The position numbers and the translations under genes were made by a program. Under the pieces are notes generated by a model. That model did no database searches, was not told the DNA's origin, and was given only the letters and a program-made list of their open reading frames with translations. Below are positions 2,355 through 47,359 of a stretch of 53,037 nucleotides of DNA, one piece after another. Position 1 is the stretch's first letter. Every line of letters starts with the position of its first letter. The DNA lies in UHGV virus genome UHGV-0150124; one strand, 5' to 3'. The DNA comes from a virus.

Positions 2355-2551
2355 TGCAATAACTCCATTATGTTAATTAACGGAATAATTCTACCATTTT
2401 GTAATCCGCGTTACACTTTGAGCTTATACATAATGTATTTTTTGATCTATGTCAACATACTAAATGATAGCTTCTGCGGTGATTTGCTCATCGGATGGGT
2501 GGATCATCACGAACAACAAATGACAGTAAAACAAACAGTAAGGTGAATACA

Positions 2552-2812
2552 ATGAAAAAACTAATTGTTGCTTGCATCTTATCGGCTCTGTCTTTTGGTG
2601 CTTTTGCTTCTGTAAATTCGACAGATAAGAGTGATGCTGGCACTGCTCAATATGGTGATACTAGCCTTGATAACCAACGTTCGAGTTATTTCAATACTGA
2701 CTCATGGAAAGAAAAACAACTACAAGGTAAAATTATTGACAGTGAATGTAATTTACCTATCCATTTTTCTGGTGTAAATGATGGGTGTGAAAAAAATAAA
2801 AACAATGCATAA
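2552..2812 (+). CDS. Small secreted protein, opposite-strand moron
   Basis: ATG at 2552 after AAGGTGA; N-terminal signal peptide MKKLIVACILSALSFGAFA; AT-rich; followed by terminator. Confidence 0.5.
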   Translation: MKKLIVACILSALSFGAFASVNSTDKSDAGTAQYGDTSLDNQRSSYFNTDSWKEKQLQGKIIDSECNLPIHFSGVNDGCEKNKNNA

Positions 2813-2840
2813 AAAAACGGGGCTTATGCCCCGTTTTTTA
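2811..2840. terminator. Bidirectional intrinsic terminator
   Basis: A-run, hairpin AACGGGGC-TTAT-GCCCCGTT, T-run; sits between convergent genes. Confidence 0.6.
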
Positions 2841-5800
2841 TGCTGTCGTTGATGTTATAAATGATCCGGTGCCTCTTGCTACTATCATTGTTGGAGAATA
2901 CAACGCGGTACAATATGCGTATCCTTCAGATGATGATGTTTGAGGACAATATATTTTCCCGATAATATCTGATGCTTTTAAACCAGAAAAAGCGCATTGC
3001 ACTGTTAATGTGCATCCACCATAAGGCACGTAATATGAAATTGTTTTGTTTTTATCTCCGCAACTAAACGTTACGTTATAAGTGGATCTATATTCACCAG
3101 ACATTAATGAAATAGTCGCCATAAGCATAACTGATTTCGTCAATGCATTATCCGTGCTGTCTTTATATGTGATGGTTGCGCTATAACTTCCGTTATGCCC
3201 AAGTACTCGATCTGGACCAACCCCCATGTTAGCAACGTCACCGATAAATGACTTTGCCTCTACTGTACCTTTAAACTTCCCGCTTGTGGCCTGAATCTCA
3301 CCAGTGAATTTACCAGATGTTGCGTACACCGTACCGCGTACAGTGACGTTGTTGAACTCCGCATTGCCGTTTTTATTTAGCATCCAGCCAGCCGAACCAG
3401 CTTTATAGTTGGTTGACTGAATTTGCTGCGCAATCTTCGCGGTAGTGATTGATGCGTCTCTGATCCACGCATCACGGATGTAGCAAGCACCGTTAGTAAC
3501 ATAGAACGGGGTCTGATAGGAGCCACCTGCCGCAGTCATAAGCACGAAACGGTCAACGAGGAAAATACACTGCGATTGAACGTTAGTCCCGCTACCAGTA
3601 AGGCCGAGCGACATTCCTGTAGCGTATTTCATACCGTTTTTATCAGTGGCAATCTTAATTGAATATGACGCATCAACGTTACCTTTGAAGTCAGTCAGTG
3701 CTTTTGATGTCGTTTCTATCGCCGTTGTGTTTCCGTTAATAGTTACTTTCAACTGGTCGATTCTGGTTGACAATGCCTCGTCTGCCGTTGCCATAGCCTG
3801 TGACCATTCCGTGATGCTTGAGTTTACATCGTCGAAAGATGCCGAGATCTGGCCAAATTTTTCCGCGCTTGATGTTTCATGCGTAGAAAGTGCAGTTGAC
3901 ACTTCGGATACTTTCGAATTAATCGTACTGGTAAGCGATGAGTTAAGGCTGCTGATTGCGTCAGTGCGTGCATTCTTCTCATCTGCGATCGCTTTATCCA
4001 TCCTGGTTACGTTGCTTGTCACCTTGCTATCGAGCGTGGAAATTGACGCATTAACCCCGCTAATAGCTTCTGCGCGTGCGCTTGATTCATCGGCGATAGC
4101 CTGATCCAGGCGCTTAACACTGGCGTCAGTTTTGCTTTCAAGGGTACTGATATTGGCGTTAACGTTGCTAATGGCTTCAGCGCGTGCGCTTGATTCATCG
4201 GCTATCGCTGTATCTACCCTTGCTATTTCCGCTTTTGTTTTTGTTTGCCCTTTCCTGTATTTCGCCTCAATAATAGTGCTCATCTTGCTTTGTGCCATTG
4301 AGTTATTAATAAGAGCAAGTGAGGCGTTTTGCAGACTTGCTTTCGCCTGATCTATCTCGTCGCTGTTTTTATCAACCTCACTTTTAACGCCGTCAAGCGA
4401 CGCGCTGATACCTGATATCGCCTGAGCACGTGCGCTTGATTCATCGGCGATAGCCTGATCCAGGCGCTTAACACTGGCATTTGTGTTATTTTCAAGCGTT
4501 GTTAAATCAGCTTTAACCACTGTTATTGCGTCGCTTCTTGCCTGCGTTTCATCTGATATTGCTTTATCAAGGCGGGAAACGCTGGCGTCAGTTTTCTTGT
4601 CAAGCGTTGAGATACTTGCGTTCACGTCGCTGATAGCCTGAGTACGCGCACTTGTTTCGTCTGCAATTGCCCGGTCAAGACGGTTTACGCTGGCGTCAGT
4701 TTTCTTGTCAAGATTGCTTATTGAAGCGTTCACGCCGTTAATGGCTTCAGCGCGTGCGCTGGCCTCGTCAGCCACTGCGCGTTCCACACTGGAGATCTGA
4801 CCTTTAAGGTTAGAATCCATCGTGTTCATTTCTGCCGTGATGGTTTCCAGTGATTCCGCTGTCGCTTTTTTCTCTTCAGCGATAACGTTGTCAATACGGT
4901 CAATTTCAGCCTTCGTCTCTGTCCTACCTTTCTTGTACTGAGCGGTAAGAGTTACGCGAGTGTTAGTCTGTGCAAGCGAGTTATTGATAAGCGCCAATGA
5001 CGCGTTTTGCAGGCTTGCTTTTGCTTGCGCCAGTTCGCTGCCAACTTTTTCGCTGGATACTTCAAGGGAGTCTATTCTTGACTCATGCTGCCCAATATCA
5101 TCGGCGTTTTCCTTAACTTTTTTATAAAGATCTTCCGTTTCTTTTTTAAGTGTATCCGTGTCAGCTTTTATCGATCCTGTTTCTGTGATTAGGTTGTCAG
5201 TTTCAGTCCTTAAATCGTCAGTTATTTCGGTCAGATTGTCAGTTGCAGTTTTAAGGTCATTCGTAGCGCTTTCGATAAGATCAGTGCGGTCGCCTAGATC
5301 TTTAATGTCATCAACCATTTCTTTAAACTGTTTTGAATTCATCACGTCTTTGGTGACGTAATCGGTGATTTCATCAAAGTTTTCTGTTGGCTTACCTGAT
5401 GCTTCAACGAAATCTGACACGCCGAAAGCGTTACGTGTGCGCACATAAACGTAATATGTGTGACCTGTATTCATGCCGCCAAACGTCCACTGATGACCAC
5501 GACCTGTATATTGTGCTTTAGTGGTTACTGATGCCGGGTCGGTGATCTGTGTTTCACCTGAGTAATAAAACTCATAACTGGTATCAGTGGTGAGCGTTGT
5601 TCTGCTGATCGGGTAAACGGTAGCCTGGAATACACCAGGAACCCAATTAACGCCGACGGGGGCCGCTGGTGCACCAATAACCAGATCCACAATACTTTCC
5701 GCGCCCTTCATGCCAGTATCATTACGCCCGCGAATACCTAATGAATAGATTCCTGAGTCAATGCCATAAAAATCATAACTGTAATTCGTAGTTTCGTAGC

Positions 5801-7787: not shown

Positions 7788-7801
7788 GGCTTTTTCTCCT
7801 G

Positions 7802-9731: not shown

Positions 9732-9747
9732 TGTGATATGCGTCACA
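9732..9747. promoter_or_regulatory. CRP-consensus palindrome TGTGATATGCGTCACA
   Basis: Perfect TGTGA-N6-TCACA half-sites, ~62 bp upstream of a candidate promoter start. Confidence 0.4.
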
Positions 9748-9767: not shown

Positions 9768-9796
9768 TTGATCATGGTTTTTACAATATGTATATT
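9768..9796 (+). promoter_or_regulatory. Candidate sigma70 promoter for the plus-strand moron cassette
   Basis: -35 TTGATC (9768..9773), 17-bp spacer, -10 TATATT (9791..9796). Confidence 0.35.
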
Positions 9797-9824
9797 TTAC
9801 TCAAACGAAGGGGAAGTTAACAAA

Positions 9825-10031
9825 ATGGCGCGGAGGTGCGTTATGACTGAAAAGCCATGGAAGTTGACGGTATTCATGACAGACGGTAGGGAAAAGGTTA
9901 TCGCCCTGTATGACGACGAGGGGGAAGCATTGGTTGACGCGCTTTTACTTGCTGAGGATGACCGCCTTTTGGGATACCAGATCGAACCTGTCAAATATGA
10001 GGCTAACAAAAATGAAAAAATACAGTCTTGA
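9825..10031 (+). CDS. Hypothetical protein, moron cassette gene 1
   Basis: ATG at 9825 after GAAGGGGAAG; opposite strand to surrounding tail genes. Confidence 0.4.
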   Translation: MARRCVMTEKPWKLTVFMTDGREKVIALYDDEGEALVDALLLAEDDRLLGYQIEPVKYEANKNEKIQS

Positions 10032-10362
10032 TGTGTGGTTAAGTGGTAGCAAGGAGTGTTTCGGATTATTTGATAGCGAAGAAGTAGCCCTGGAAGAAGG
10101 CAGGATTCTTGAATGTAGTTTAGGCCATCCAGTGAAATATGCTGCTAATCCGGTACAGATAGTTGATGAGGTGGAAGATATGAACCCGAAAGATATTAAT
10201 GTTAACTTCAATGTTAATTTTGCAGACTCTATGGATCAGTCTTGCCCTGGTGAAATACACGCAAAAGGTTTCCCGGCTGACGATCCAGAAGCAAAACGCG
10301 AATACGAAAAAGCTGCGAAAGACTTCTGCATCGATAACCTAAGCTGTTTTAATGGCAAATAA
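10012..10362 (+). CDS. Hypothetical acidic protein, moron cassette gene 2
   Basis: 116-aa ORF, ATG at 10012. Confidence 0.4.
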   Translation: MKKYSLDVWLSGSKECFGLFDSEEVALEEGRILECSLGHPVKYAANPVQIVDEVEDMNPKDINVNFNVNFADSMDQSCPGEIHAKGFPADDPEAKREYEKAAKDFCIDNLSCFNGK

Positions 10363-10377
10363 AGAGTGAGCCAATAT

Positions 10378-10611
10378 ATGAAGATGATAGGTATTATCAA
10401 ACTCGTTGTTACATCTAACAAAAAGAAGGATTTTAATATAAAAGATAAATACCCATTATTCAAAACATCTTCTGGTACTTATTTCACTGTTGGCAACTGT
10501 TTAAACTTTGTTCCGCTGACAGTGCTTGATGTTTCTGGAGGCATGGTGAAATGGTATGGAACTGTTTACGGCGATGATTTTATGCCTGATATGCTATTTT
10601 TTGATGCGTAG
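10378..10611 (+). CDS. Hypothetical protein, moron cassette gene 3
   Basis: ATG at 10378 after AAAGAGTGAG. Confidence 0.4.
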   Translation: MKMIGIIKLVVTSNKKKDFNIKDKYPLFKTSSGTYFTVGNCLNFVPLTVLDVSGGMVKWYGTVYGDDFMPDMLFFDA

Positions 10612-10621
10612 GAGTAAAATC

Positions 10622-10870
10622 ATGGGGCGGCGCAATCACGGTGATTATGTGTACACGTTGAAACAGGCCGCCCGCCTCGTCGGTTATCATGAGCACGAAT
10701 TTATTGATTTGCTGATTGAGCGCGGGATTCTGTACCAGGTATGTTTAACGCTGTACCCGAAAGCGAAATACCTACAGGAAAAGTTATTTATCATCATGAC
10801 GGATGAAAACCAGGTAAATCATTCATTCGTCACCGATAAGGGATTGACATATTTGAAGGGAGTGTTATGA
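10622..10870 (+). CDS. Putative HTH DNA-binding protein, moron cassette gene 4
   Basis: ATG at 10622 after AGGAG; segment YTLKQAARLVGYHEHEFIDLLIERGIL looks like an excisionase/MerR-type HTH. Confidence 0.4.
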   Translation: MGRRNHGDYVYTLKQAARLVGYHEHEFIDLLIERGILYQVCLTLYPKAKYLQEKLFIIMTDENQVNHSFVTDKGLTYLKGVL

Positions 10871-10947
10871 GGTGTGTGAACATTACATTCTCGAAGTGAT
10901 TATTATTGCGGTAGCTGTAATGCTGGTATTATCACCAATATTATAAA

Positions 10948-10972
10948 CCCCGCTCCGGCGGGGTGTTTTTTT
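10948..10972 (+). terminator. Intrinsic terminator ending the plus-strand cassette
   Basis: Hairpin CCCCGC-TCCG-GCGGGG followed by TGTTTTTTTT. Confidence 0.6.
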
Positions 10973-11518: not shown

Positions 11519-11685
11519 AAAACCCCCACAAGTTACATTTTGTATATATCTTTACGCGCTTCTACGCGAAAAATAAGATCATTGTCACAATGATTATAGC
11601 TAGTTTACAAAATGGCTTCACATAGCACGCAACAAGATGTATATAGAAAGCAAGAAGAAAGTAGTACCAACGAAGGAGGCCCAAA

Positions 11686-12113: not shown

Positions 12114-12174
12114 GTCGAGATATTCGAAAGGGGATATATCGCGCGGAATGGTCGTTTATAAATACGAAAAATAA

Positions 12175-12205
12175 CCCCGGCATTGCACCGGGGTTTAGTT
12201 TATTT
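12175..12205 (+). terminator. Intrinsic terminator after mini-cassette A
   Basis: Hairpin CCCCGG-CATTGCA-CCGGGG followed by TTTAGTTTATTT. Confidence 0.5.
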
Positions 12206-14545: not shown

Positions 14546-14702
14546 GATTTAACCTCATGCAGAATGTGATGTATGTCTCTATTTTATACAAAATGGCTTC
14601 ATTTCAACGAATACATTTTGTATAAAGAAGCTAAAGGGAAGGGATAGAGCAAATGGATTTAAAAGGCCGGATTAACCGGAGGAAGCAAAAGGGGACAAGA
14701 AA

Positions 14703-15275: not shown

Positions 15276-15300
15276 GCCCGGATCTACCGGGCTTTTTCTT
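15276..15300 (+). terminator. Intrinsic terminator after mini-cassette C
   Basis: Hairpin GCCCGG-ATCTA-CCGGGC followed by TTTTTCTT. Confidence 0.55.
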
Positions 15301-15970: not shown

Positions 15971-16016
15971 CTTAAAAGAAAAGGGGCCAAATGGCCCCGA
16001 TTGTTAATATTGGCTG

Positions 16017-18357: not shown

Positions 18358-19419
18358 TTACTCACCGCTACCAAAGACAACACCTGAACGACCAGCCATG
18401 TCAGCAGTGATCTGTAGACCCTCGGCAGACATGATGCGGAAGTTGTAGTTATCAGTCGGCATCTGGCGCGGCAGCGGAACAACACCAGTGGTCATACCGA
18501 TCAGCGGGCTAATTACTGATTTCTGGCGCTGGTAGGCAATAAATTCGTTACCTGTCAGCGCGAAGGTCTGGCGAACTTCACCAACCGGGAGGTATGGCTT
18601 GATAACATCCAGAACACGACCAACAACAGCGCCATTAACGATGTGAGGCGCAGCCAGGTTAGCCATGATTTCAGGGGATACCCACATGACATCGTACTTA
18701 GCTACGAAGTTAGCGCGGGCCAGAGCACCGAAAGCACCAGTAGTGAAGAATTTAATCAGCACGTCAAAGGTGGCGGTAGTCAGGTCGATTTTCGCGGTTT
18801 TCAGGCTCAATTTCTGTGTATTCTTGTGGGTTTTCAGGCCCATCGCCTTATGACCATCAACGACCATCGCGTCATTCCCTTCAAGGTAGAATTTAACGCG
18901 GCGTTTGTTGAACTGGCGCAATTTAAGGCGCTGGCTATCCAGGGCGAGGTCAATACCAACGGTATTTAACCCAGCAGCGTGACGCCAGTTAACACCGTAA
19001 CCTGCGGTGAACATTGGAATCGGGTCGCCATCGCTACCGTATTCGGTGTGATCAAAGCCGTGTGGCGCTTGACCATCCATAGACATAACGACTTCATCGT
19101 TGATATCGCCTGCTACGCTGTACATTTTCAGCGTTTTACCGATAGGCAGTACGGTTTGCACAGCCATCAGGTCGTTGACGATCTCAATACCGATTTCTTC
19201 CTGGCTCAGTTCGATAATCTGATTATCGATTTCTTTCCAGAATTCTTTTTCGAAGCCGCCAACAGCGTTACAGGCCAGCATTTCAGCGGTCATATTCGCG
19301 CGGTTAGCTGCAATCATCGCGTTATGCTGCGCATTAAAGATATTGCGCTGCGCCCACAGTTCGCTCCAGTGCGCTTGCATACGGGCGTTTGTGGCTAAAT
19401 TTTCTCTAGTAAAATACAT
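18358..19419 (-). CDS. Major capsid protein
   Basis: 353-aa ORF with strong RBS, downstream of scaffold-like gene; assigned by position and size (not lambda gpE-like). Confidence 0.55.
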   Translation of the reverse strand: MYFTRENLATNARMQAHWSELWAQRNIFNAQHNAMIAANRANMTAEMLACNAVGGFEKEFWKEIDNQIIELSQEEIGIEIVNDLMAVQTVLPIGKTLKMYSVAGDINDEVVMSMDGQAPHGFDHTEYGSDGDPIPMFTAGYGVNWRHAAGLNTVGIDLALDSQRLKLRQFNKRRVKFYLEGNDAMVVDGHKAMGLKTHKNTQKLSLKTAKIDLTTATFDVLIKFFTTGAFGALARANFVAKYDVMWVSPEIMANLAAPHIVNGAVVGRVLDVIKPYLPVGEVRQTFALTGNEFIAYQRQKSVISPLIGMTTGVVPLPRQMPTDNYNFRIMSAEGLQITADMAGRSGVVFGSGE

Positions 19420-19434
19420 TATGTATACCTCTTT

Positions 19435-23395: not shown

Positions 23396-23491
23396 AATGT
23401 TTACTCCTGAATACATGTTTACGCGTTGCTACGCGAAAAATAGAAAAATTCGTGAGGGATTGTGAGGCAGATTTTGTGTAGCTAATTGAGA

Positions 23492-29219: not shown

Positions 29220-29320
29220 TTTTAGAATCTCCGTCTTTCAGTGGCTTATATATAACAAAACGGCACTGCCGGAACAATGCCATTTCGTAAACATTGTGAT
29301 AAAGATCACATTTTGTTCAT

Positions 29321-32320: not shown

Positions 32321-32510
32321 CCTTCACCTCGCGACGATAGATTTCTACTGGCTTAACCGGAATAGCGTTAAAATCCCCTTCATCCAGTGCGGCAATAAAC
32401 GTTAGCGCCAACCGTGCTTCAACACCGCTTAAATACTTGCACCATGCCTCACCGTTATAATCTTCAAAAAGAATAACCGCTTTTTTCATGTTTATCTCTT
32501 GTTGTTTCAT
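32310..32510 (-). CDS. Hypothetical protein
   Basis: 66-aa ORF starting at the Q stop codon. Confidence 0.4.
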   Translation of the reverse strand: MKQQEINMKKAVILFEDYNGEAWCKYLSGVEARLALTFIAALDEGDFNAIPVKPVEIYRREVKDEA

Positions 32511-33232
32511 TATTCACCCCGTGTCACTCGTTTAATTTCGTTATCAGCCCGCGCCTCTTCTTTGAACAATTCAGTAATGGCGTCTTCATAGAAAGCACGG
32601 TATTTCTTCCACCACGTTGATCGGCTTACCGGAAATACAAGCTGATTAACCGCACGCCGGACAAGATCTACAGGGAAACGCGAGTACCCGCGCCCGCCGC
32701 AATGCTGGCACGTTTTGAACACTGGCATTTCCGCTGCTTCACTGGCTGCTTTATCCGGTATCTCGCCGCGCCCTTTGCATCGTTTACAATGATTACGAAC
32801 TTTTCCATGCCCCTTGCATTTTTTGCAAAGGTGTTTTTCTCCGTAGTCGTCAAACGTAAATTTATATCCGCCGCAATCCATACAAGTTTTTTCTGTCGCG
32901 GCACTCTGGCAGTAATCCCGAAACGCGAAAACGGCAACAAGAATAATAAGATCATTGCGTTTGTCCTCGTCCAGCTCTATGACGTATTCGTAATCTTTTG
33001 CCATAGCTCTTAAACGCTCTGTAAGCAAAACTACGGCCCTGTGTTTTTCGGCTTGCGATAGTTCCATCTTTCCCAAAAAAGCGCTATAGCCAAGCTCTAC
33101 GCGCGATTGCGCCATACCCGCAGCGGTTAGCGCATCCGTCGTATTAAGAGCGTCCGGGGACGTGCCCCGGCTTTCGTCAGATAATCGCGGTGATTTAGGA
33201 AAGTGGAATTTTAGAATGGATTCTAAATTCAT
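32510..33232 (-). CDS. Q: Late-gene antiterminator Q (lambda type)
   Basis: 240 aa; N-terminus MNLESILKFHFPKSP vs lambda Q MRLESVAKFHSPKSP; Cys-rich zinc-binding segment CMDCGG...CKRCKGRGE...CQHCGGRGYSRF. Confidence 0.85.
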   Translation of the reverse strand: MNLESILKFHFPKSPRLSDESRGTSPDALNTTDALTAAGMAQSRVELGYSAFLGKMELSQAEKHRAVVLLTERLRAMAKDYEYVIELDEDKRNDLIILVAVFAFRDYCQSAATEKTCMDCGGYKFTFDDYGEKHLCKKCKGHGKVRNHCKRCKGRGEIPDKAASEAAEMPVFKTCQHCGGRGYSRFPVDLVRRAVNQLVFPVSRSTWWKKYRAFYEDAITELFKEEARADNEIKRVTRGE

Positions 33233-34420: not shown

Positions 34421-34732
34421 AAAAACCACCCCGATTATTTTTGATTCTCTGTTTCGTTCAGCCTTTCGGCGTGTCCGGCCCTTAGCCAATGTTCTAAGCA
34501 TTCGTTGCACTCGTTACAGCCTCCTTTCTTCGTGCTGCATACATTGCACATTGCACGCATAACGCTTTCTCGTTCATAGTCGTCATGCCATTGGTAATCA
34601 TCAAAAGACATAATGCTCTCTCCTTTTCAGGTGATTTCTACGCATTTCAGCGCTGCCGGATTTTTAAAGAGCATTTTGTTTGCTTGAAGTATACAAAATG
34701 GATATGCCATAACAAGGTGAAAAGCGCCATTA

Positions 34733-34748
34733 TGTGATACGTATCACA
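34733..34748. promoter_or_regulatory. CRP-consensus palindrome TGTGATACGTATCACA
   Basis: Perfect TGTGA-N6-TCACA within a fully symmetric 14-bp palindrome, in the gap between methylase and ninG. Confidence 0.4.
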
Positions 34749-34770
34749 CAGTGACGCCATTTTGTAAACT

Positions 34771-37827: not shown

Positions 37828-38103
37828 TTAAGCCTCAATAACACCGTAATCAAACGTGCCTAAATACCGTTCGATACTTACAACCTCAATACCATCAATA
37901 CACCGTTTCCACACAGACACCTGGCTTTCATTTTCTCTGAAGTGCATATTAGAAAGCACTTCATCGGCTGGATAGTCTTTCCCGGCGACGTAGGCATCGT
38001 GACCTACGCCACCTTCTACGCAATAAAGCATCAATTCGCGTTCCATTTTTGCTTCCTCCGCACCGTAAACCTTTTGATTTCGGCTTACAAAACGGATATG
38101 CAA
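37828..38103 (-). CDS. Hypothetical protein
   Basis: 91-aa ORF. Confidence 0.4.
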   Translation of the reverse strand: MHIRFVSRNQKVYGAEEAKMERELMLYCVEGGVGHDAYVAGKDYPADEVLSNMHFRENESQVSVWKRCIDGIEVVSIERYLGTFDYGVIEA

Positions 38104-38145
38104 TCACAATACAAAATGTATATTTATGTGATCGGAATTACTCTG

Positions 38146-41406: not shown

Positions 41407-41552
41407 TTAATCTCCCGTGCTGTTAACACTATGTATAAGGCTTTATTCGCGGCGCTCCACATTTCGGCATCGTGAAGCATTTCCGCTACTGCCAGTTTGA
41501 ATTGAAGCGCCTGAATAACCATAATGTCACCTCCGGATGTTTACATTTTGTA

Positions 41553-41843
41553 TTAATGGTAGCGGACTTTATCCAGGGGTTTTTCCCCTAAATGGCGTGG
41601 TTGCGTTGCGTGGTAGTAGCTGCCGCTTTCATTTTCCGTATACCATTTTACTGATCCTTTGCGACGTTCTTTAATGCTATTTGGTTTGCATCTTTCCTCG
41701 TTTGCAAATCGAATAGCTTTATCCACATTGTCTGTTTTATTGATTGCAGGTGATGATTTTCTTTCGTTTTCTCTTTTTATCCTTCTGCGTTCCCTGGCAT
41801 TCATTTTGCTATCACATTTACCATATATAATTGTAACGCTCAT
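41553..41843 (-). CDS. N-like transcription antiterminator
   Basis: N-terminus MSVTIIYGK...NARERRRIKRENER is an arginine-rich motif resembling P22 gp24 / lambda N; first gene leftward of the repressor. Confidence 0.65.
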   Translation of the reverse strand: MSVTIIYGKCDSKMNARERRRIKRENERKSSPAINKTDNVDKAIRFANEERCKPNSIKERRKGSVKWYTENESGSYYHATQPRHLGEKPLDKVRYH

Positions 41844-41898
41844 AATCTGATCTCCGTATATCCTTGATGATACTTAATAAAAAATCATCTTCGTTAAT

Positions 41899-41938
41899 TG
41901 CCGCACTTCCAGCGGCTGACCAGATTGTTAATGAGCGG
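41899..41938 (-). promoter_or_regulatory. Candidate nutL (boxA CGCTCATTA plus boxB hairpin GCCGC-UGGAAGU-GCGGC)
   Basis: Read on minus strand 56-95 nt upstream of the N-like start. Confidence 0.4.
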
Positions 41939-42310
41939 CTTAACATCTTTCAACTAATCCCGCAATCATCGCCGTTCCCGGCGTGACCTTGCTCACTCCA
42001 AGCAAGCTGACTCGTCGCCTTGCGTGCGGTTTCGTGGGGGATGTAACGCTTTAAACACCCCATGCGCCTTGTTATCAGTGCCGCTTTCGGTCCCCCATCG
42101 GGGAGTTACTCCACGGTTGACAAGGTGTTAAGCCTGATTTTTAAAGTGCCAGGAAGTTGCTTTTGTTACCTGCGCCCTTCCTTTGACTCGCAATATACGC
42201 CCCGTAAAACATCGAGTCAATCCATTTTGTATACTTTTTTAAAATATTTTATATGCCATTGATATTTAAATAATAAATAACGTTTTCTGTTTACGTTTTG
42301 GTGTTTTCCA

Positions 42311-42337
42311 GGCAAAGAAAAGCCGCCATTCGGCGGC
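42311..42337 (-). terminator. Intrinsic terminator downstream of the repressor gene
   Basis: On minus strand: hairpin GCCGCC-GAAT-GGCGGC followed by TTTTCTTTG. Confidence 0.55.
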
Positions 42338-42343
42338 TAATGT

Positions 42344-42991
42344 TTATGGCAGGTTTACGATCTTCGCATCAACCACCACGCCTATAATTTTTGATTCTGG
42401 ATTCATAGGGATTGGCGGATACAGCGGATTGAGCGAACGTAAAAGCCTTTGACCTCCATCAATAATCAACTGTTTAAACGTCGGTATCTGCCCTTCCTCA
42501 AGCTGGGCTATAACCAGTTTGCCGTCAATAGCTGGCGCGTGCGGGTCCACAAGTATCATCGTCCCCGCCGGGATGCTCAACCCCTGCGGCGCGTTCATTG
42601 ATTCACCTTTGGCAACCAGCCAGTAACTGTCATCTGAACAAATAACGCTAGTCGTAACGTGTCGTAATGCTGAACGCCTTGCGTCATCCATATTGTTTAC
42701 TGTGTCCTTCCAGTCAATAACCGGGTAACTACCTAAATCACGCGGCGGCACGGCCTGAAGTGTATTAGAAACAGAATCATCAATGACCATGCCATCATGT
42801 GTAACAGTAAACTGCCGACGACCAAGCTCGCGCATAATCCGCGCAATATCTTCAAGATTTGGCTCTCGGCGACCGTTCAGCCAGTGTGACAGGCCGCCTT
42901 TAGTTATCCCCATACGATCCGCGAGCGAATCCTGGCTCATGCCCTGCGCCCGCATGAGCTGCTTTGCTAAGTCATACCATTTTGTTTTCAT
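42344..42991 (-). CDS. cI: cI-type repressor (HTH plus LexA/S24 autopeptidase domain)
   Basis: 215 aa; N-terminal HTH (QDSLADRMGITKGGLSHWLNG); C-terminal S24-like domain with GESM serine and downstream Lys. Confidence 0.85.
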   Translation of the reverse strand: MKTKWYDLAKQLMRAQGMSQDSLADRMGITKGGLSHWLNGRREPNLEDIARIMRELGRRQFTVTHDGMVIDDSVSNTLQAVPPRDLGSYPVIDWKDTVNNMDDARRSALRHVTTSVICSDDSYWLVAKGESMNAPQGLSIPAGTMILVDPHAPAIDGKLVIAQLEEGQIPTFKQLIIDGGQRLLRSLNPLYPPIPMNPESKIIGVVVDAKIVNLP

Positions 42992-43296
42992 GTCGCTACC
43001 CTATAACCTCAAAAAGTTTGATGCAAGTCACAAAACGTGTATTTTAAGCCTTGATCTTAAAATTCCATTTTGTAAACTTGCAGACAAGGTAAGGCCATAC
43101 TTGCAAAGACGCAAGGAAAAAGATAACGGAAGGCACAAAAAGGCACTTACCTTATGCTCTTTAAAAATCCGGTGTCGCTGCGAAGCGAAAAACAAATATC
43201 ACGCAACGGCGGGATCTGTTGAGCGGTCAGTCACTGCTATCTAATGCTAATGGGATGCCCGCCCGCGCGTTCACTCTAACCATAGGAGAAAATGCG
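42992..43296. promoter_or_regulatory. Immunity-region intergenic control region (candidate operators and rightward promoter)
   Basis: 305-bp gap with repeated CTTGCA / TGCAAG half-sites and palindrome CTTGCAAAGACGCAAG; no Cro-like ORF found. Confidence 0.4.
43153..43190 (+). promoter_or_regulatory. Candidate nutR (boxA-like TGCTCTTTAA plus boxB-like CGCU-GCGA-AGCG)
   Basis: Resembles the nutL candidate (CGCUG.GAAG core). Confidence 0.35.
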
Positions 43297-43554
43297 ATGA
43301 GTATAAACATGATTAGTAAAGCATGGAACGTAAAACTTAATAGCCCGACTCAAAAACTTGTCTTAATGGCTCTGGCTGAAAAGGCAGATAACAAAGGACG
43401 GGTACATGATGCATCACGCAAAGAAGTAGCCGCAATGTGTGAACTTCCTGTTCATACGGTACATGATGCCTTCGCCGCGTTAATGGATAAAGGATTTGTT
43501 TGTCGTCTTGATGCATTCAGTGATGTCTATGTAGTGATGTTGCCGGAGGGATGA
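43297..43554 (+). CDS. Winged-helix DNA-binding protein, first gene of the rightward operon
   Basis: Start at MSINMISKAWN after AGGAG; KLVLMALAEKADNKGRV...EVAAMCELPVHTVHDAFAALMDKGFV. Confidence 0.45.
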   Translation: MSINMISKAWNVKLNSPTQKLVLMALAEKADNKGRVHDASRKEVAAMCELPVHTVHDAFAALMDKGFVCRLDAFSDVYVVMLPEG

Positions 43555-43557
43555 TCT

Positions 43558-44604
43558 ATGAAGTGGTTTAAGCATGACAGCGATGCGAACCGCGATGAAA
43601 AACTTCAAAACGTTTTGTTAGATTATGGCCTGGAAGGGTACGGGCTTTATTGGTATTGCCTCGAACTAATAACTTATGACGTAGATCAGCACAATCTGAC
43701 TTTTGACCTACGACATGACGCGAGAATCATTGCTCGAAACGTCGGATCTACTGAAAAACGTATAGAAGAAATGATGAAATACTTCATCGAAATTGGTTTG
43801 TTTGAATGTTCTCAAGGCCACATAACTTGTTTAAAGTTATTGAAAAGGCTGGACCAATCAATGACTTCTAAAAGCGCTTACAGGGCCGCCATAAACACAG
43901 CGAAGGAACAATTAAAATTAGAAAAGTTAATCAATCCAACACAAAAAGGTCATGATAGGGTCATGACCGGGTCAGGAAAGGGTCATGAATTAGAAGTAGA
44001 AAAAGAAAGAGAAAAAGATATATACACTTCGTGTATTGTCGAAAATGAACAAAAAATGGTCAATCAGGATGGCGTAAACGAAGCGGCATTGCGTTGCCTT
44101 GCCTTCTACAACGACAAGGCAGGATGCAAATGTCGTGATGCTAAGCCATTCGTAGAACTACTGACAGAAACAAAAACATGTAAAGCGTATACGGAGAATG
44201 AGATCACGTTAGTAATTGAGTGGGCTTTAACCCAATGGCGTAGCCGTGGTGGAGTACCTAAGCCTATCAACATTTGCCGGGTAACTAGGTTTGATGGGTA
44301 TTTGGCTGATGCTGAACAATGGCGCAAGCTATCAGCCACTGTAAACGCTGCCGACGTGGTGGAAGCATTTAACAGCACGTTTGACGGCCTGTTACCACCT
44401 GCCGAACTGGATCGGGATCTTGAACGCAAGATCTATGCGTTCACTGACTACCTGAAAGACAAAAGCATTAACGGCTTTGTCGCCTACTTCGAAAAGTTCA
44501 AAAACACGGCTTCAGATTTTTACTTTGGCAATGGCTTCACTGCGACACTTGATTTTCTGCTTAAACCAAAAACGCTACGTGATACGCGCGCTGGCGTTCT
44601 TTGA
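43558..44604 (+). CDS. Phage replication initiation / replisome organiser protein
   Basis: 348 aa; N-terminus MKWFKHDSDANRDEKLQNVLLDYGLEGYGLYWYCLELI resembles the Lin1244-type replisome organiser N-domain (by eye). Confidence 0.55.
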   Translation: MKWFKHDSDANRDEKLQNVLLDYGLEGYGLYWYCLELITYDVDQHNLTFDLRHDARIIARNVGSTEKRIEEMMKYFIEIGLFECSQGHITCLKLLKRLDQSMTSKSAYRAAINTAKEQLKLEKLINPTQKGHDRVMTGSGKGHELEVEKEREKDIYTSCIVENEQKMVNQDGVNEAALRCLAFYNDKAGCKCRDAKPFVELLTETKTCKAYTENEITLVIEWALTQWRSRGGVPKPINICRVTRFDGYLADAEQWRKLSATVNAADVVEAFNSTFDGLLPPAELDRDLERKIYAFTDYLKDKSINGFVAYFEKFKNTASDFYFGNGFTATLDFLLKPKTLRDTRAGVL

Positions 44605-44989
44605 CCAATCACGATCCGCAAAAATCCAAAATTACCCACAAAACAACCTCACCAGCGAGCTAAATAGCATGTGGTGCTAACTTGCTTGCCTTTTTGCGAT
44701 TAGCTCGTTAGAGAGCGTTACAGAGAGGATTTTAAAATGGACGGTAAACGCATGTTCGCCCTGGCTTTCGCGATCGCGATGGCTATCGCTGTTAACGTCG
44801 CCTTGTTCGGCGGTTTGTATCTGCTAGTTAATCCATAACCTACCTACCAGTCTGTAAATCGAAAATTAGCCACCTGATAGCGCCTCTAGCGCAATAAGAC
44901 ACTGCAACCTGTAAACGGGTTACGCGGTGGGATTTTTGCGTTGTAGCTCGTCTGAGGCGTTATATAGAAAATTAATAAAGGAGGTATAT

Positions 44990-46045
44990 ATGATTGCTAC
45001 TTATCATATGAAACTCAATTGTAAGGACACGCAATTACTGTCTGTTAATAATCTGGTTTCTGAACTTGAAATTGATAGACTTAAATCATTTGTTAAATAC
45101 TCTGATCTTTACGGATTTGAGGAATACAAGGATTTTATTGTTGATGGCGATGATGTGTATATCACACCCATAACGTTTATTAGATTCGTTACACCTGGTA
45201 AATATAGACATTATGAATATAATGAAAAATGGGTTAAGCCAGTTATTGAATCTTGTGGATTAGTTGACTTGCAAGATATCTTTAATAAATATTCAAATAA
45301 CACCAAAAAAGATAGTCCTTATGCTTATAATTATATTTTATGGTGTAATAATTATGTTGAAACGAGTGATACTCCTGGGCGATGTTCTGTGTATGTGTCA
45401 AAAGAAGATGCTGAAAAGTACAAAAAATGGTTGTTCGTCACTCGCGGAGTATCAATAGAAAAACTATGGGTAAGGTTGTTCCATTCAAGCGATATTGCAG
45501 ATCCAGATGCGTTTTTAACTGAACACCTCAATAATGATGAGTTTACCATTGATTTAAATATTGAATATTTTATAGTTAAAACAAATTATGGGTATGAAAG
45601 ATATATTAGCGATAAGATGGCAGAAAAGTATCATGCATGGGGTGAAAATAAAGGTCTTAATAATAATTTTGAATGCGGGAATTATAACGACATAGAAAAC
45701 TTTATTGAATTAAAAAGCGATAAAAATGTAATTGAAGAAATAAAAAAGGAGTGCGACTCGAAATTATCAGAAATGAGAGATAATTGTAAAAATATGATTA
45801 GGAAGCGTTATGAACATGCTGGCTTAACTATGTATGAAAAACTAAAAGGAGTTAAATTAATAAGGCAATATCCTGTTGATGTTGCTGGCAATAAGTATTT
45901 TATTGATGGCTACGATCCTGTGAATAACGTTGCTGTAGAAATTGATGAGTCACATCACAAACGGCAAGTAAAAAGCGATGCGATAAGACAAAAACGCATT
46001 GAAGATTATTTGGGGTGCAAGTTTTTCCGTTGTGCTATATCCTAA
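44990..46045 (+). CDS. AT-rich moron: protein with C-terminal DUF559 / Vsr-like PD-(D/E)xK nuclease-type domain
   Basis: ATG at 44990 after AAGGAGG; visibly AT-rich; C-terminus LIRQYPVDVAGNKYFIDGYDPVNNVAVEIDESHHKRQVKSDAIRQKRIEDYLGCKFFRC fits the DUF559 pattern. Confidence 0.5.
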   Translation: MIATYHMKLNCKDTQLLSVNNLVSELEIDRLKSFVKYSDLYGFEEYKDFIVDGDDVYITPITFIRFVTPGKYRHYEYNEKWVKPVIESCGLVDLQDIFNKYSNNTKKDSPYAYNYILWCNNYVETSDTPGRCSVYVSKEDAEKYKKWLFVTRGVSIEKLWVRLFHSSDIADPDAFLTEHLNNDEFTIDLNIEYFIVKTNYGYERYISDKMAEKYHAWGENKGLNNNFECGNYNDIENFIELKSDKNVIEEIKKECDSKLSEMRDNCKNMIRKRYEHAGLTMYEKLKGVKLIRQYPVDVAGNKYFIDGYDPVNNVAVEIDESHHKRQVKSDAIRQKRIEDYLGCKFFRCAIS

Positions 46046-46222
46046 TGTATACAAATTGTAAACCGTAATGTATACGATTAGTTATTCATTAAGTGGTTAT
46101 TTCAATTTGCATAAGTTGTTGATTAACCCTACTGGCATTTTTTGACACCGTGAAATCCATGTTAATAAAAATTAGTTATTTATGAATAAATACTCATTCC
46201 GCGAACCGGGGGTAATAACGTT

Positions 46223-47341
46223 ATGTCACAAAGAAAGATCAGCGATGAGGAACTGATCGCCGAGTACAACAAGGGGAAAACTTACAAGCAAATAGCAGAA
46301 GAATATGGAATGGCAAAACGCAACGTCGAACGCCTGGGCGCACGGTTGGCGAAACGCGGTTTAATATCCACGCGTCGCGCGCCGGGCTTTGGCGTCAATG
46401 GTGAGTCATTGCTCGTCGATAAGGATGGCAATGTGATTATGCGCTGGATTAAAACAGCCCGTGATCGCGATGAAATGGAAAGGCTAATGCAAGCGGCTTG
46501 CGATGCTTTCACGGAAGACATGCCACGCGCGGAGGCCGTGCCAGTGCCGGAAATTGATTTCCAAAAAAGCCTGGCCCTTTATCCGGTATTCGATCTGCAT
46601 ATCGGGGCGCTTGCTCATAAAGCTGAATGCGGTGAGAGCTACGACACCGGGATCGCTGAGCGCGTGCTAAATGATTTCTTTGACTACGCGGTAGGCGCAG
46701 CGCCGATGTCTGAAAAAGCTGTATTGCTTCTCGGTGGGGATGTTCTTCACACTGATGGGCTGTTGCCAGTGACGCCATCAAGCAATCACGTTCTTGATTG
46801 CGATTCACGCTACGCAAAACTTGTTTATGTGGCGATCCGGTCAGTCCGCCGTGCTGTAGGAAAGATGTTGTTAAACCACAAAGAAATCGAAATCCAGGTA
46901 TTATCAGGTAATCACGATCAGTCGGGGATGATTTGGCTACGTGCTGCGCTGGCGGCTTTTTACGAAGATGAACCGCGCGTAACGGTTGACGTGTCACCTG
47001 CTATCGTACACCACACACAGTACGGCAAAACATTCCTTGCTTACCACCACGGACACACCATCAAAAAACCAGAAAATTTGTTGTCTGCCTGCGTCTCTGA
47101 CTGGCGGGAAGATTTCGGTAAGTCTGCGGCGGTTTATGCTCATTGCGGGCACTGGCACCACCAACGGTTGATTGAATCATCGTTAGGCGTTGTTGAGTAT
47201 CACGGCACGTTAGCGGGCAAAGACGCTTATTCAACGAATGGCGGCTGGCGGTCGCGGCGTCTGGCGGCGGTAATAATTTACAGTCCTGATCACGGGGAAA
47301 TCGGGCGCTTTGTTTATTACCCTGAATATTCCATTTTGTAA
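46223..47341 (+). CDS. HTH domain fused to a calcineurin-like metallophosphoesterase
   Basis: Ordered MPE motifs DLH, GGDVLHTDG, GNHD, HHGH, GHWHH; N-terminal HTH-like YKQIAEEYGMAKRNVERL. Confidence 0.6.
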   Translation: MSQRKISDEELIAEYNKGKTYKQIAEEYGMAKRNVERLGARLAKRGLISTRRAPGFGVNGESLLVDKDGNVIMRWIKTARDRDEMERLMQAACDAFTEDMPRAEAVPVPEIDFQKSLALYPVFDLHIGALAHKAECGESYDTGIAERVLNDFFDYAVGAAPMSEKAVLLLGGDVLHTDGLLPVTPSSNHVLDCDSRYAKLVYVAIRSVRRAVGKMLLNHKEIEIQVLSGNHDQSGMIWLRAALAAFYEDEPRVTVDVSPAIVHHTQYGKTFLAYHHGHTIKKPENLLSACVSDWREDFGKSAAVYAHCGHWHHQRLIESSLGVVEYHGTLAGKDAYSTNGGWRSRRLAAVIIYSPDHGEIGRFVYYPEYSIL

Positions 47342-47359
47342 ACCGGAGGTAATGCCATA

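What the first reader, a model, noticed from the sequence alone, without database searches (positions are those of the whole stretch)
2394..47352. Recurrent CCATTTTGTA(A/T)AC motif at operon boundaries across the prophage
By eye, the motif or its reverse complement occurs at least ten times, almost always in intergenic or leader regions: 2394, 11532, 11603, 14585, 14611, 34690, 34756, 41541, 42221, 43065, 47340, with a variant at 29280. This is far more than expected for a 13-mer in 52 kb and suggests a binding site for one phage or host regulator, or a conserved promoter element.
Basis: seen in the sequence. Interest (0 to 1): 0.55.

Follow-up and report, generated by a model that had tools for sequence, protein, structure and literature searches.

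The report
Dispersed operators of the prophage repressor
The repeated CCATTTTGTA(A/T)AC motif is real and is most likely the DNA site bound by this E. coli prophage's own lambda-CI-like repressor, but it is scattered over about 13 promoter regions across the whole genome instead of sitting only at the two classical operators.

Summary
There are 6 exact copies (0 expected), 11 copies with at most 1 mismatch and 23 with at most 2 (4.3 expected). All 13 strong copies lie outside annotated genes.

The window is a complete mEp021-like (mEpimmI) E. coli prophage inserted in dgcM. The motif is not a fixed promoter element. It is a pseudo-palindrome, T(C/A)CA-TTT-TGTA.

It matches the operator consensus ATAC(A/G)-N3-(T/C)GTAT found here upstream of 45 homologues of the prophage repressor Rep (HTH_3 + S24 peptidase, 42344-42991, minus strand). 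These homologues share its recognition helix (..HWLNGRREP). In phages ST64T/L and Midgardsormr38 such sites occur only at OL and OR.

In this prophage, about 22 sites at about 13 loci include both early promoters (pL/pRM and pR). Others sit at a promoter before nutR2, at the dnaB junction, and in four divergent promoter regions inside the tail-gene cluster. They usually overlap a predicted sigma-70 core promoter. Orthologous early-region sites are kept in all 44 related contigs examined, and late-region sites in mEp021 and MagusPhagus.

The most likely function is repressor-mediated silencing of many scattered promoters in the lysogen. Binding itself is untested. The published description of the group does not define Rep's operators. 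This is a new variant of a known kind, of moderate interest.

The parts
42344..42991 (-). rep: prophage repressor (215 aa), the proposed binder of the motif
   Evidence: Pfam HTH_3 (1.5e-12) + Peptidase_S24 (5.8e-19). Full-length match to lambda CI 3BDN, E 1.4e-20. 92-98% identical to Rep of the mEp phages, whose Rep021 confers immunity (PMC11893012).
43065..43077 (+). Operator O-L1 (CCATTTTGTAAAC), overlapping the -10 of predicted pL
   Evidence: Exact match. Predicted pL is TTGATC(43051)-16-TAAACT(43073), upstream of nutL boxA at 43156. In relatives only the central base varies: CCATT[T/C/A]TGTAAAC.
43029..43039 (-). Operator O-L2 (CACGTTTTGTG), family-type core 34 bp from O-L1
   Evidence: Family PWM hit. 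Relatives vary only at the R position, AC(A/G)TTTTGTG. Its core ACGTTTTGTG is also the core of the middle OR site of L185, L186 and L188. It lies about -43 from a possible leaderless rep promoter, TTGCAT-17-TAGGGT.
42977..42989 (+). Weak site CCATTTTGTTTTC overlapping the rep start codon (possible third operator)
   Evidence: 2 mismatches; conserved in mEp021 and MagusPhagus. It overlaps coding sequence, so its status is uncertain.
42222..42234 (+). Operator O-R distal (CCATTTTGTATAC), 1 bp upstream of the pR -35
   Evidence: Exact match. pR is TTGACT(42220)-17-TATATT(42197) on the minus strand, the best promoter score in the region. The site sits in an invariant 19-bp block across 44 loci; 5 loci read ACA instead of CCA.
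42196..42206 (-). Operator O-R proximal (TACGGGGCGTA), overlapping the pR spacer and -10, 25 bp from the distal site
   Evidence: Fits TAC(A/G)-N3-(T/C)GTA. Variants in relatives (CACAGGGCGTA, TACGTGGCGTA) mostly keep the AC..GTA arms, with one exception (TACGGGGAGTA).
34689..34701 (-). Operator overlapping the -10 of a predicted promoter just upstream of nutR2
   Evidence: Exact match. Promoter TTGTTA(34715)-16-TATACT(34693). boxA GCTCTTTAAAAATCC at 34672-34658.
34757..34769 (+). Partner operator, 68 bp from the 34689 site, in inverted orientation
   Evidence: Exact match. The pair is kept in all relatives with 68-69 bp spacing.
47331..47343 (+). Operator at the junction before dnaB (its TAA is the stop codon of the upstream gene; 17 nt before the dnaB ATG)
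   Evidence: Exact match. Orthologous site in mEp021 (6060) and MagusPhagus (3768), and the first minus-oriented site in nearly all rep-centred loci. No good promoter is predicted here.
38083..38120 (-). Operator pair CCGTTTTGTAAGC (38083-38095) + palindromic TACAAAATGTA (38110-38120), in an intergenic gap of the pR operon
   Evidence: family PWM score 19.8. The mEp021 counterparts at 16538/16565 lie between gp25 and gp26.
41542..41552 (.). Palindromic operator TACATTTTGTA just downstream of the N-like gene (41553-41843)
   Evidence: score 16.5; mEp021 counterpart at 12606-12609.
29251..29292 (.). Operator pair CCGTTTTGTTATA (29251-29263, minus) + CCATTTCGTAAAC (29280-29292, plus), 30 bp apart, upstream of the lysis region
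   Evidence: Counterpart in MagusPhagus (40266/40296, there CCATTTTGTATAC) but none found in mEp021.
14584..14625 (.). Operator pair upstream of the tape-measure gene: CCATTTTGTATAA (14584-14596, minus) + TACATTTTGTA (14612-14622), 30 bp apart
   Evidence: score 19.3. The CCA site overlaps the -10 of TTGAAA-15-TAAAAT, 38 nt before the ATG at 14545. Conserved in mEp021 and MagusPhagus.
11535..11615 (.). Operator pair between tail gene M and an opposite-strand cassette: ACATTTTGTATAT (11535-11547, plus) + CCATTTTGTAAAC (11603-11615, minus)
   Evidence: The CCA site lies in the spacer of GTGAAG-17-TATAAT (minus strand). The other site abuts the -35 of TTTACG-17-TAAGAT (plus strand). Conserved.
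9782..9828 (.). Operator pair between tail gene L and an opposite-strand cassette: TACAATATGTA (9782-9792) + CCATTTTGTTAAC (9816-9828, minus)
   Evidence: Face-to-face promoters TTGATC-17-TATATT (plus, score 12.9) and TTGTTA-18-TAAAAT (minus, 10.8) are both overlapped by the sites. Conserved.
2364..2437 (.). Operator cluster between the tail-fibre gene and an opposite-strand cassette: weak TCCATTATGTTAATTA (2364), CCATTTTGTAATC (2394-2406, plus), TACATAATGTA (2427-2437)
   Evidence: score 20.1. Spacing is 29-33 bp. The 2394 site lies in the spacer of GTGTAA-17-TAGAAT (minus). Conserved.
19415..19425 (.). Palindromic site TACATTATGTA at the RBS/start of the major capsid gene (status uncertain)
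   Evidence: score 19.7. No matching hit in the mEp021 or MagusPhagus scans, so it may be chance or strain-specific.
46050..46060 (.). Palindromic site TACAAATTGTA in the gap after the DUF559-like gene (status uncertain)
   Evidence: score 16.0.

Best explanation
The motif is the operator of the prophage's own lambda-CI/P22-C2-type repressor, Rep (42344-42991, minus strand).

The site is a pseudo-palindrome, T(C/A)CA-TTT-TGTA(W)AC. A Rep dimer would place its two helix-turn-helix units on the two arms. Sites often occur in pairs 25-37 bp or 67-69 bp apart, which would allow cooperative binding through the CI-like C-terminal domain.

Unlike classical lambdoid phages, where such sites are confined to OL and OR, this phage family carries about 22 sites at about 13 loci. 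These are:
- pL/pRM;
- pR;
- a promoter in front of nutR2;
- the dnaB junction;
- gaps inside the pR operon;
- a region upstream of the lysis genes;
- four divergent promoter regions that interrupt the tail-gene cluster where opposite-strand cassettes are inserted.

At most loci a CCA-type site overlaps the -10, spacer or -35 of a predicted sigma-70 promoter. The most likely function is therefore that Rep directly shuts many independent promoters in the lysogen. When Rep is cleaved on induction, all of them would be released together.

What is shown: the sites exist, are enriched, are non-coding and are conserved; they match the operator consensus of the Rep family; and they sit on predicted early promoters. 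What is inferred: that Rep binds them, and that binding represses the late-region promoters rather than activating them or blocking elongation.
For: 1. Enrichment and placement.

2. The window is an mEpimmI prophage, and Rep021 alone confers immunity to the group (PMC11893012).

3. Rep homologues at 37-51% identity share the recognition helix (GITKGGLSHWLNGRREP against GKTQGAIGHWLNGRREP and similar). They sit in classical cro-rep regions that carry 2-3 matching sites. Examples are ST64T/L OL, TTAAGTACATTTTGTATTG twice, and KPP5665-2 OR, which contains CCATTTTGTAT.

4. In 45 further homologues from Citrobacter to Pseudomonas, the roughly 100 bp before rep nearly always holds three sites, ATAC(A/G)-N3-(T/C)GTAT, about 30 bp apart.

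5. A PWM built only from those relatives recovers the window's sites at 2424, 9779, 11531, 14609, 38107, 41539 and 46047 (scores 16-20), and the CCA-type sites at 10-11.5. In ST64T its scores of 14 or more fall only at OL and OR; in Midgardsormr38 all but one do (5787).

6. Across 44 related contigs the early-region sites are kept. The substitutions fall mostly where the family consensus is free: the central triplet, the R/Y positions, and CC<->AC.

7. pR carries a distal and a proximal site 25 bp apart, and the proximal one overlaps the -10. pL's -10 lies inside a site.

8. Six of six predicted promoters reading into lytic genes (pL, the promoter before nutR2, and those for the tape-measure, M, L and fibre genes) have a CCA-type site within the core promoter.
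Against: - No binding data exist. The published description of the group states only that Rep021 may recognise different operators from lambda CI (PMC11893012).
- Most strong sites have CC where the family consensus has AC, and they have a conserved 3' flank (W-A-C) that the family lacks. They therefore score only 10-11.5 with the family PWM. This extra conservation is unexplained.
- Promoters are consensus predictions only. Promoter-like hits in these regions are no more frequent than in shuffles.
- The intergenic regions are 85-90% conserved overall, so conservation of the late-region sites in three genomes is weak as a footprint.
- The strong pR-distal site is centred near -41, a position that in lambda pRM activates rather than represses.
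- Sites at 47331, 38083 and 41542 have no convincing promoter. Sites at 19415 and 46050 may be chance.
- A Cro-like protein, if one exists, would be expected to use the same sites.
Confidence: 0.8

Rival explanations
1. The sites are bound mainly by another phage-encoded regulator rather than Rep. Candidates are an unrecognised Cro-like protein or the MarR/Lrp-like winged-helix protein of the pL operon (48819-49412). It would act during lytic growth, for example to shut off opposite-strand cassettes or early promoters.
For: No cro gene lies next to rep; the first pL gene is the N-terminal domain of the replication initiator. The 48819-49412 product matches a PHROG 'MarR family transcription regulator' (7.5e-8). 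In lambdoid phages Cro shares CI's operators, so a second binder is plausible.
Against: The consensus follows the Rep family across 45 unrelated prophage backgrounds, where it sits exactly upstream of rep. Nothing links the motif to the MarR-like protein. Pfam gives that protein no domain.
Confidence: 0.1
2. The motif is a conserved part of a promoter (an UP element, an extended -10 or a -35) recognised by host RNA polymerase, not a repressor site.
For: TAWACT can be read as a -10 at 43065 and 34689. TTGTTA within the 9816 site is a plausible -35. At pR the A-rich reverse complement lies where an UP element would be.
Against: The position relative to the best -35/-10 pair differs at every locus. 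Several copies lack the -7 T (TAAACC, TAAACA, TATAAA). Strict conservation of CC and G8 is not a promoter feature. The same consensus forms tripartite operators upstream of homologous repressors.
Confidence: 0.03
3. The motif is a site for a host DNA-binding protein. Superficial resemblances considered were the OmpR C1 box, the Tus Ter core GTTGTAAC, the TyrR half-site TGTAAA and a GntR-type TTGTATACAA.
For: There are short similarities recalled from memory, not tested against curated matrices. Host CRP-type palindromes do sit next to three of the loci.
Against: None of those consensus sequences is matched over its defining positions. In the viral contig collection, multiple copies per contig were seen only in contigs of about 54-55 kb, three of which are confirmed mEpimmI-like by their Rep gene. 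The family-level link to Rep is strong.
Confidence: 0.03
4. The copies are recombination or module-boundary sequences left at the junctions of inserted cassettes, with no regulatory role.
For: Four loci sit exactly where opposite-strand cassettes interrupt the tail genes.
Against: Only 13-17 bp are shared between the loci. Copies also lie at pL, pR and nutR2, where no cassette junction exists.
Confidence: 0.03

Closest known systems
OL/OR operators of lambdoid CI/C2 repressors (lambda CI, P22 c2; closest here: the phage L/ST64T c2 repressor, 44% identical)
   Same: The repressor has the same architecture (HTH_3 + S24 self-cleaving domain) and a near-identical recognition helix. The operator core is the same, (T)AC(A)-N3-TGTA(T). 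Sites lie on both early promoters flanking the repressor gene, with paired sites 25-34 bp apart.
   Different: ST64T has such sites only at OL and OR, and Midgardsormr38 has one further high score (5787). Here there are about 10 additional loci, including inside the late structural region. Most strong sites have an asymmetric CC arm and a conserved WAC flank. No cro gene is adjacent to rep.
Bacteriophage P1 C1 repressor operators
   Same: One immunity repressor controls many operators dispersed over the genome: 22 sites with a 17-bp asymmetric consensus, ATTGCTCTAATAAATTT (PMC8546580). This gives distributed control of separate transcription units.
   Different: No relationship to P1 C1 was seen or tested here; Rep's own matches are lambda-CI-like. 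The P1 consensus is unrelated. From background knowledge, not tested here, P1 is a plasmid prophage without N/Q antitermination.
Stoperators of cluster A mycobacteriophages (L5 gp71 and relatives)
   Same: A 13-bp motif is present in more than 20 copies in short intergenic gaps across the genome, and it is bound by the immunity repressor (PMC9283540). Some copies here (47331, 38083, 41542) also lie inside operons without an obvious promoter.
   Different: The L5-type repressor is a monomer with two DNA-binding domains, and its sites are oriented with transcription (PMC9283540). Here the repressor is CI-like, the site is pseudo-palindromic, and orientation is mixed in both operons.

Membership tests
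Operator of a CI/C2-type (HTH + S24) prophage repressor | A cognate repressor gene with an HTH DNA-binding domain and a LexA-like self-cleaving/dimerising domain is present in the same element | tested here: met
   42344-42991(-): HTH_3 1.5e-12, Peptidase_S24 5.8e-19. Lambda CI 3BDN, E 1.4e-20, over residues 15-208.
Operator of a CI/C2-type (HTH + S24) prophage repressor | Sites lie at the divergent early promoters flanking the repressor gene and overlap their core elements | tested here: met
   The pL -10 lies inside the 43065 site. pR has a proximal site on its -10 (42196-42206) and a distal site abutting its -35. The promoters are predictions, not mapped starts.
Operator of a CI/C2-type (HTH + S24) prophage repressor | Dyad symmetry of the site | tested here: inconclusive
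   Nine sites are perfect TACA-N3-TGTA palindromes against 0.8 expected. The 11 CCA-type sites are symmetric at 3 of 4 arm positions only and carry an asymmetric flank.
Operator of a CI/C2-type (HTH + S24) prophage repressor | Same consensus as the operators of homologous repressors that share the recognition helix | tested here: met
   Rep homologues carry mostly tripartite ATAC(A/G)-N3-(T/C)GTAT arrays upstream of rep (45 homologues). ST64T, KPP5665-2 and Midgardsormr38 carry such sites at OL/OR. A PWM built from the relatives recovers the window's sites.
Operator of a CI/C2-type (HTH + S24) prophage repressor | Direct, sequence-specific binding by the repressor, and loss of immunity when the sites are mutated | not testable with these tools
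   No binding or genetic data were found: PMC11893012 leaves the operators undefined, and a search for the motif strings found nothing relevant.
Stoperators (L5-type) | Orientation of the asymmetric site correlates with the direction of transcription | tested here: not met
   In the minus-strand pR operon the sites are on both strands (34689-, 34757+, 38083-, 29280+). The late-region pairs are inverted.
Stoperators (L5-type) | A monomeric repressor with an HTH plus a second 'stoperator' DNA-binding domain | tested here: not met
   Rep is CI-like with an S24 C-terminal domain.
P1 C1-type dispersed operators | A repressor homologous to P1 C1 and the consensus ATTGCTCTAATAAATTT | tested here: not met
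   The consensus sequence is different. Rep's Pfam and PDB matches are all HTH_3/S24 and lambda CI, not P1 C1. Only the dispersed layout is shared.
Sigma-70 promoter element | A fixed distance and orientation relative to the -35/-10 hexamers and the transcription start | tested here: not met
   The motif overlaps the -10 (43065, 34689, 14584), the spacer (11603, 2394) or the -35 (9816), or lies upstream of the -35 (42222, 11535).

The most novel reading that the evidence does not exclude
A lambda-CI-type, SOS-cleavable repressor acts as a genome-wide silencer in a common family of E. coli gut prophages. It sits on about a dozen separate promoter regions, including re-initiation promoters inside the 'late' tail operon and the promoters of opposite-strand cassettes. 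At promoter-less sites (47331, 38083, 41542) it acts as a roadblock.

The consistent pairing of an asymmetric CCA-type site with a symmetric TACA-type site would then encode different affinities or different outcomes. One possibility is repression of the lytic promoter together with lambda-pRM-like activation of the cassette promoter, where the site is centred near -43.

Late-gene expression in this family would then depend on both loss of Rep and Q antitermination. This would be a hybrid of the lambda and P1 regulatory designs.
Probability: 0.3. Interest if true: 0.6.

Novelty: new variant of a known kind. Interest (0 to 1): 0.45.

Why it matters
mEpimmI phages are reported to be as common as lambdoid phages in human-gut E. 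coli (PMC11893012), yet their operator sites have not been defined. This analysis gives three things.

- A concrete, testable operator sequence for the immI repressor.
- A consensus, ATAC(A/G)-N3-(T/C)GTAT, for a wide family of CI-like repressors sharing the HWLNGRREP recognition helix, from Enterobacterales to Pseudomonas.
- Evidence that in one lineage these operators have spread from OL/OR to about 13 loci, including the tail-gene cluster.

If Rep binds all of them, the textbook picture does not hold for this group. In that picture CI controls only two promoters and the late genes form one Q-dependent unit. Expression of the opposite-strand cassettes would also be wired directly to the lysis-lysogeny switch. 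These cassettes include the exclusion lipoproteins and antirepressor-like genes annotated in relatives.

The sites also offer ready-made, SOS-responsive promoter/operator parts.

Tried and rejected
1. Fixed promoter readings (motif as -10 TAWACT, as -35 TTGTAW, or as an UP element) were each checked at all sites and fit only a minority.

2. Rfam and tRNA scans of the window found nothing. An RNA-level element is also unlikely because orientation is mixed.

3. Host-factor look-alikes (OmpR C1 box, Tus Ter core, TyrR, CpxR, LexA, IHF, a 434-like ACAA-N6-TTGT) were compared by eye from memory. None matches over its defining positions. These were not tested against curated matrices.

4. An exact-pattern scan of IMG/VR gave mostly single chance hits. 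Multiple hits occurred only in contigs of about 54-55 kb, three of which are confirmed mEpimmI-like by their Rep gene.

5. I looked for a heteroimmune relative as a natural experiment. All 44 close contigs and the E. coli prophage checked (NZ_CP019020) carry the same Rep at 90-100% identity, so this test could not be done.

6. The first scan of species-representative genomes with Rep alone found nothing. The alignment-based rescan succeeded.

7. The small winged-helix gene after nutL (43297-43554) was considered as a Cro. It was rejected because it is fused to the replication protein in NZ_CP019020.

8. Phylogenetic footprinting of the late-region loci is uninformative, because the whole intergenic regions are 85-90% conserved.

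9. A relaxed core pattern ([AC]C[AG]WNW[TC]GTA) was too loose to discriminate.

10. Valencia-Toxqui et al. 2023 (PMID 36795170), which may map pL and pR, is not held in the library.

Full report
**1. The observation**

CCATTTTGTAWAC occurs 6 times exactly, against 0.00 expected in dinucleotide shuffles. With up to 2 mismatches it occurs 23 times, against 4.28 +/- 1.95 expected; 11 of these have at most 1 mismatch.

Aligning 13 strong copies shows a sharply bounded 13-mer, with little information in the flanks.

'47340' is really 47331-47343, and 41541 is a 3-mismatch variant. Copies at 9816(-) and 38083(-) were missed.

All 13 strong copies lie between the genes annotated in close relatives, or on the last codons of a gene. 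Even a crude test against all six-frame ORFs gives P of about 1e-4 to 1e-5.

**2. What the window is**

The window is 84-96% identical to E. coli prophages inserted in dgcM (ydaM) and to phages mEp021, mEp010 and MagusPhagus. It is therefore a complete member of the mEpimmI group (PMC11893012).

The layout is as follows:
- Tail, head and terminase genes lie on the minus strand (567-25510). They are interrupted by small plus-strand cassettes at 2495, 9910-10870, 11859 and 14849.
- Lysis genes and a Q-like antiterminator (32510-33232) follow.
- The early 'rightward' operon is on the minus strand, with an N-like protein at 41553-41843.
- The repressor Rep is at 42344-42991 (minus strand).
- The replication operon is on the plus strand from about 43300.
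- The integrase is at 51270-52484.

boxA/nut elements lie at 43156 (plus strand), at 42133-42149 (minus strand) and at 34672-34658 (minus strand).

**3. It is not a fixed promoter element**

I tried reading the motif as a -10 (TAWACT), as a -35 (TTGTAW) and as an UP element. Each reading fits only some copies. A PWM-based sigma-70 scan shows the motif in four different positions:
- on the -10 (43065, 34689, 14584);
- in the spacer (11603, 2394);
- on the -35 (9816);
- just upstream of the -35 (42222, 11535).

That is the behaviour of a regulator's binding site.

**4. Which regulator**

Rep has an HTH_3 domain and a Peptidase_S24 domain and aligns over its full length with lambda CI. Expression of Rep021 alone confers immunity to all tested mEpimmI phages. 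Its operators are not defined in that paper (PMC11893012, sections 3.3 and 4).

Rep homologues at 37-51% identity have nearly the same recognition helix. Rep reads GITKGGLSHWLNGRREP, the ST64T/L c2 repressor GKTQGAIGHWLNGRREP, and KPP5665-2 GITQGGLGHWLNARREP. These homologues sit in classical cro-rep arrangements, and the intergenic regions there carry repeats of the same kind of site. ST64T OL has TTAAGTACATTTTGTATTG twice. KPP5665-2 OR has TAATACATAACGTACTA, a site containing CCATTTTGTAT, and ATACGGAATGTAATA. Midgardsormr38 and the IMG/VR contigs L170-L172 are similar.

An alignment-based scan of species-representative genomes then gave 45 full-length homologues, from Citrobacter, Enterobacter, Erwinia, Serratia, Proteus, Providencia, Edwardsiella and many Pseudomonas. 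In nearly all of them the roughly 100 bp before rep holds three sites, ATAC(A/G)-N3-(T/C)GTAT, about 30 bp apart.

The window's motif, written T-CCA-TTT-TGTA-WAC, is this operator with C instead of A in one arm.

A PWM built only from the relatives' sites (73 unique 17-mers) finds the window's sites at 2424, 9779, 11531, 14609, 19412, 38107, 41539 and 46047, with scores of 16-20. It scores the CCA-type sites at 10-11.5.

**5. Constraint pattern within the group**

In 44 IMG/VR contigs with Rep 90-100% identical, the sites are kept at orthologous positions. The substitutions that do occur fall mostly where the family consensus is free:
- the central triplet: CCATT[T/C/A]TGTAAAC at pL;
- the R position: AC(A/G)TTTTGTG at the second pL-region site;
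- CC<->AC at the pR-distal site.

The same comparison revealed a second, proximal pR operator, TAC(G/A)(G/T)GG(C/A)GTA at 42196-42206. It overlaps the -10 of TTGACT-17-TATATT and lies 25 bp from the distal site. Its arms are mostly kept while its centre varies.

So both early promoters carry operators in repressing positions. The second pL-region site is about -43 from a possible leaderless rep promoter (TTGCAT-17-TAGGGT), a lambda-pRM-like geometry. That last point is inference.

**6. The unusual part: dispersal**

In ST64T the tight pattern ([AC]CA-WWW-YGTA) and the high family-PWM scores fall at OL and OR only. In Midgardsormr38 there is one extra high score. KPP5665-2 has at most one extra site.

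In this window the tight pattern gives 28 hits, against 5.2 expected. Perfect TACA-N3-TGTA palindromes number 9, against 0.8 expected. This amounts to about 22 sites at about 13 loci.

Besides pL/pRM and pR, the loci are:
- a pair 68 bp apart flanking a promoter that reads straight into nutR2 (34689/34757);
- the dnaB junction (47331);
- gaps in the pR operon (38083/38110 and 41542);
- a pair upstream of the lysis region (29251/29280);
- four divergent regions in the tail cluster (2364-2437, 9782-9828, 11535-11615 and 14584-14625).

The late-region loci recur in mEp021 and MagusPhagus. Each pairs one CCA-type site with one symmetric site, 30-68 bp apart.

In all six predicted promoters that read into lytic genes, the CCA-type site lies within the core promoter. 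These are pL, the promoter before nutR2, and those upstream of the tape-measure, M, L and fibre genes. The opposite-strand cassette promoters are overlapped or flanked by the partner site. An example is TTGATC-17-TATATT at 9768-9796. The cassettes end in bidirectional terminators, so they form separate transcription units that break up the late operon.

**7. Mechanism proposed**

Rep dimers would occupy all these sites in the lysogen. Pairs would bind cooperatively through the CI-like C-terminal domain. Every independent promoter would be silenced: the two early promoters, the internal promoter before nutR2/Q, the promoters that restart tail-gene transcription after each cassette, and probably the cassette promoters too. 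RecA-stimulated self-cleavage of Rep would release them all together.

Which late-region promoters are repressed, which might be activated (sites centred near -43), and whether the promoter-less sites act as roadblocks cannot be decided from sequence.

**8. Comparison with known systems**

By family, these are operators of a lambda-CI/P22-C2-type repressor. The closest characterised relatives of the protein are the phage L/ST64T c2 repressors.

By layout, the system works like P1, where 22 asymmetric C1 operators are dispersed over the genome (PMC8546580). It superficially resembles the stoperators of cluster A mycobacteriophages (PMC9283540). It is not a member of either. No relationship to P1 C1 or to the L5-type repressor was found, the site is pseudo-palindromic, and site orientation does not follow transcription.

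A full-text search for the motif strings found nothing relevant. The paper describing the group does not define the operators. One possibly relevant paper (PMID 36795170) could not be read.

**9. Caveats**

- There are no binding data.
- The promoters are predictions, and promoter-like hits are no more frequent than in shuffles.
- The CC arm and the conserved WAC flank go beyond the family consensus and are unexplained.
- Conservation of the late-region sites is weak evidence, because the surrounding DNA is also conserved.
- The sites at 19415 and 46050 may be chance.
- A heteroimmune relative, which would give a decisive natural experiment, was not found.

**10. Verdict**

The best explanation is dispersed operators of the prophage repressor, with confidence of about 0.8 for the identity of the site and lower confidence for what each dispersed copy does. 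It is a new variant of a known kind, of moderate interest.

Noticed in passing
9732-9747, 29295-29310, 34733-34748 (and 1-mismatch 43017-43032): Three perfect CRP-type palindromes, TGTGA-N6-TCACA, all lie in intergenic regions next to the repressor sites. By my own rough estimate, not a tool result, far fewer than one exact copy is expected in 53 kb. Two are centred about 60 bp upstream of predicted starts (9803 on the plus strand, 34681 on the minus strand), a class-I-like position. This suggests cAMP-CRP input to a cassette promoter and to the promoter before nutR2/Q. They are only partly conserved in mEp021 and MagusPhagus (TCACG).
   Followed up: partly
43156-43170 (+), 34672-34658 (-), 42133-42149 (-): There are three boxA-like elements: GCTCTTTAAAAATCC twice, and GCACTTTAAAAATCAGG once. 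Their positions fit the three nut sites (nutL, nutR2, nutR1) reported for mEp021. The nutR2 copy lies only about 10 nt downstream of a predicted, operator-covered promoter.
   Followed up: partly
42992-43554; L173 18747-19745: No cro-like gene lies next to rep. The first gene after nutL (43297-43554, a weak MarR_2-like winged helix) is fused to the Lin1244-type replication protein in E. coli NZ_CP019020. It therefore looks like a split replication initiator rather than a regulator.
   Followed up: partly
42991-43026 (-): TTGCAT-17-TAGGGT would place a transcription start on the A of the rep ATG. This would be a possible leaderless repressor mRNA, like lambda cI from pRM.
   Followed up: no
44000-46000: A low-GC island (0.38 against about 0.46) holds a 372-aa ORF (44927-46045) with weak DUF559/PvuRts1I-like endonuclease matches. 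It may be an acquired defence or accessory gene inside the replication operon.
   Followed up: no
12173-12195, 15276-15292, 15983-15998, 10947-10964: Strong terminator-like hairpins close the opposite-strand cassettes inside the tail-gene cluster; three of the four are bidirectional. Late transcripts must therefore read through them or restart after them.
   Followed up: partly
44020-44036: A 17-bp palindrome, ATATACACTTCGTGTAT, lies inside the replication gene. The same or a near-identical sequence is present in MagusPhagus (1681) and mEp021 (10170). It scores 14.3 with the repressor-family PWM and could be an extra operator or an origin element.
   Followed up: no
22025-23416 (-): The protein in the portal position is labelled 'anti-CBASS protein Acb1 family' by PGAP in related E. 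coli genomes, but 'portal protein' in mEp021 and MagusPhagus. This is probably an annotation conflict worth checking.
   Followed up: no
L177 (Midgardsormr38) 10786-10896: This distant relative shares capsid (59% identical) and repressor (45% identical) homologues with the window. It has an Arc/Mnt-antirepressor module inserted among its tail genes, at a place comparable to the opposite-strand cassettes here. Its intergenic region carries TACACAGTGTA-type palindromes.
   Followed up: no
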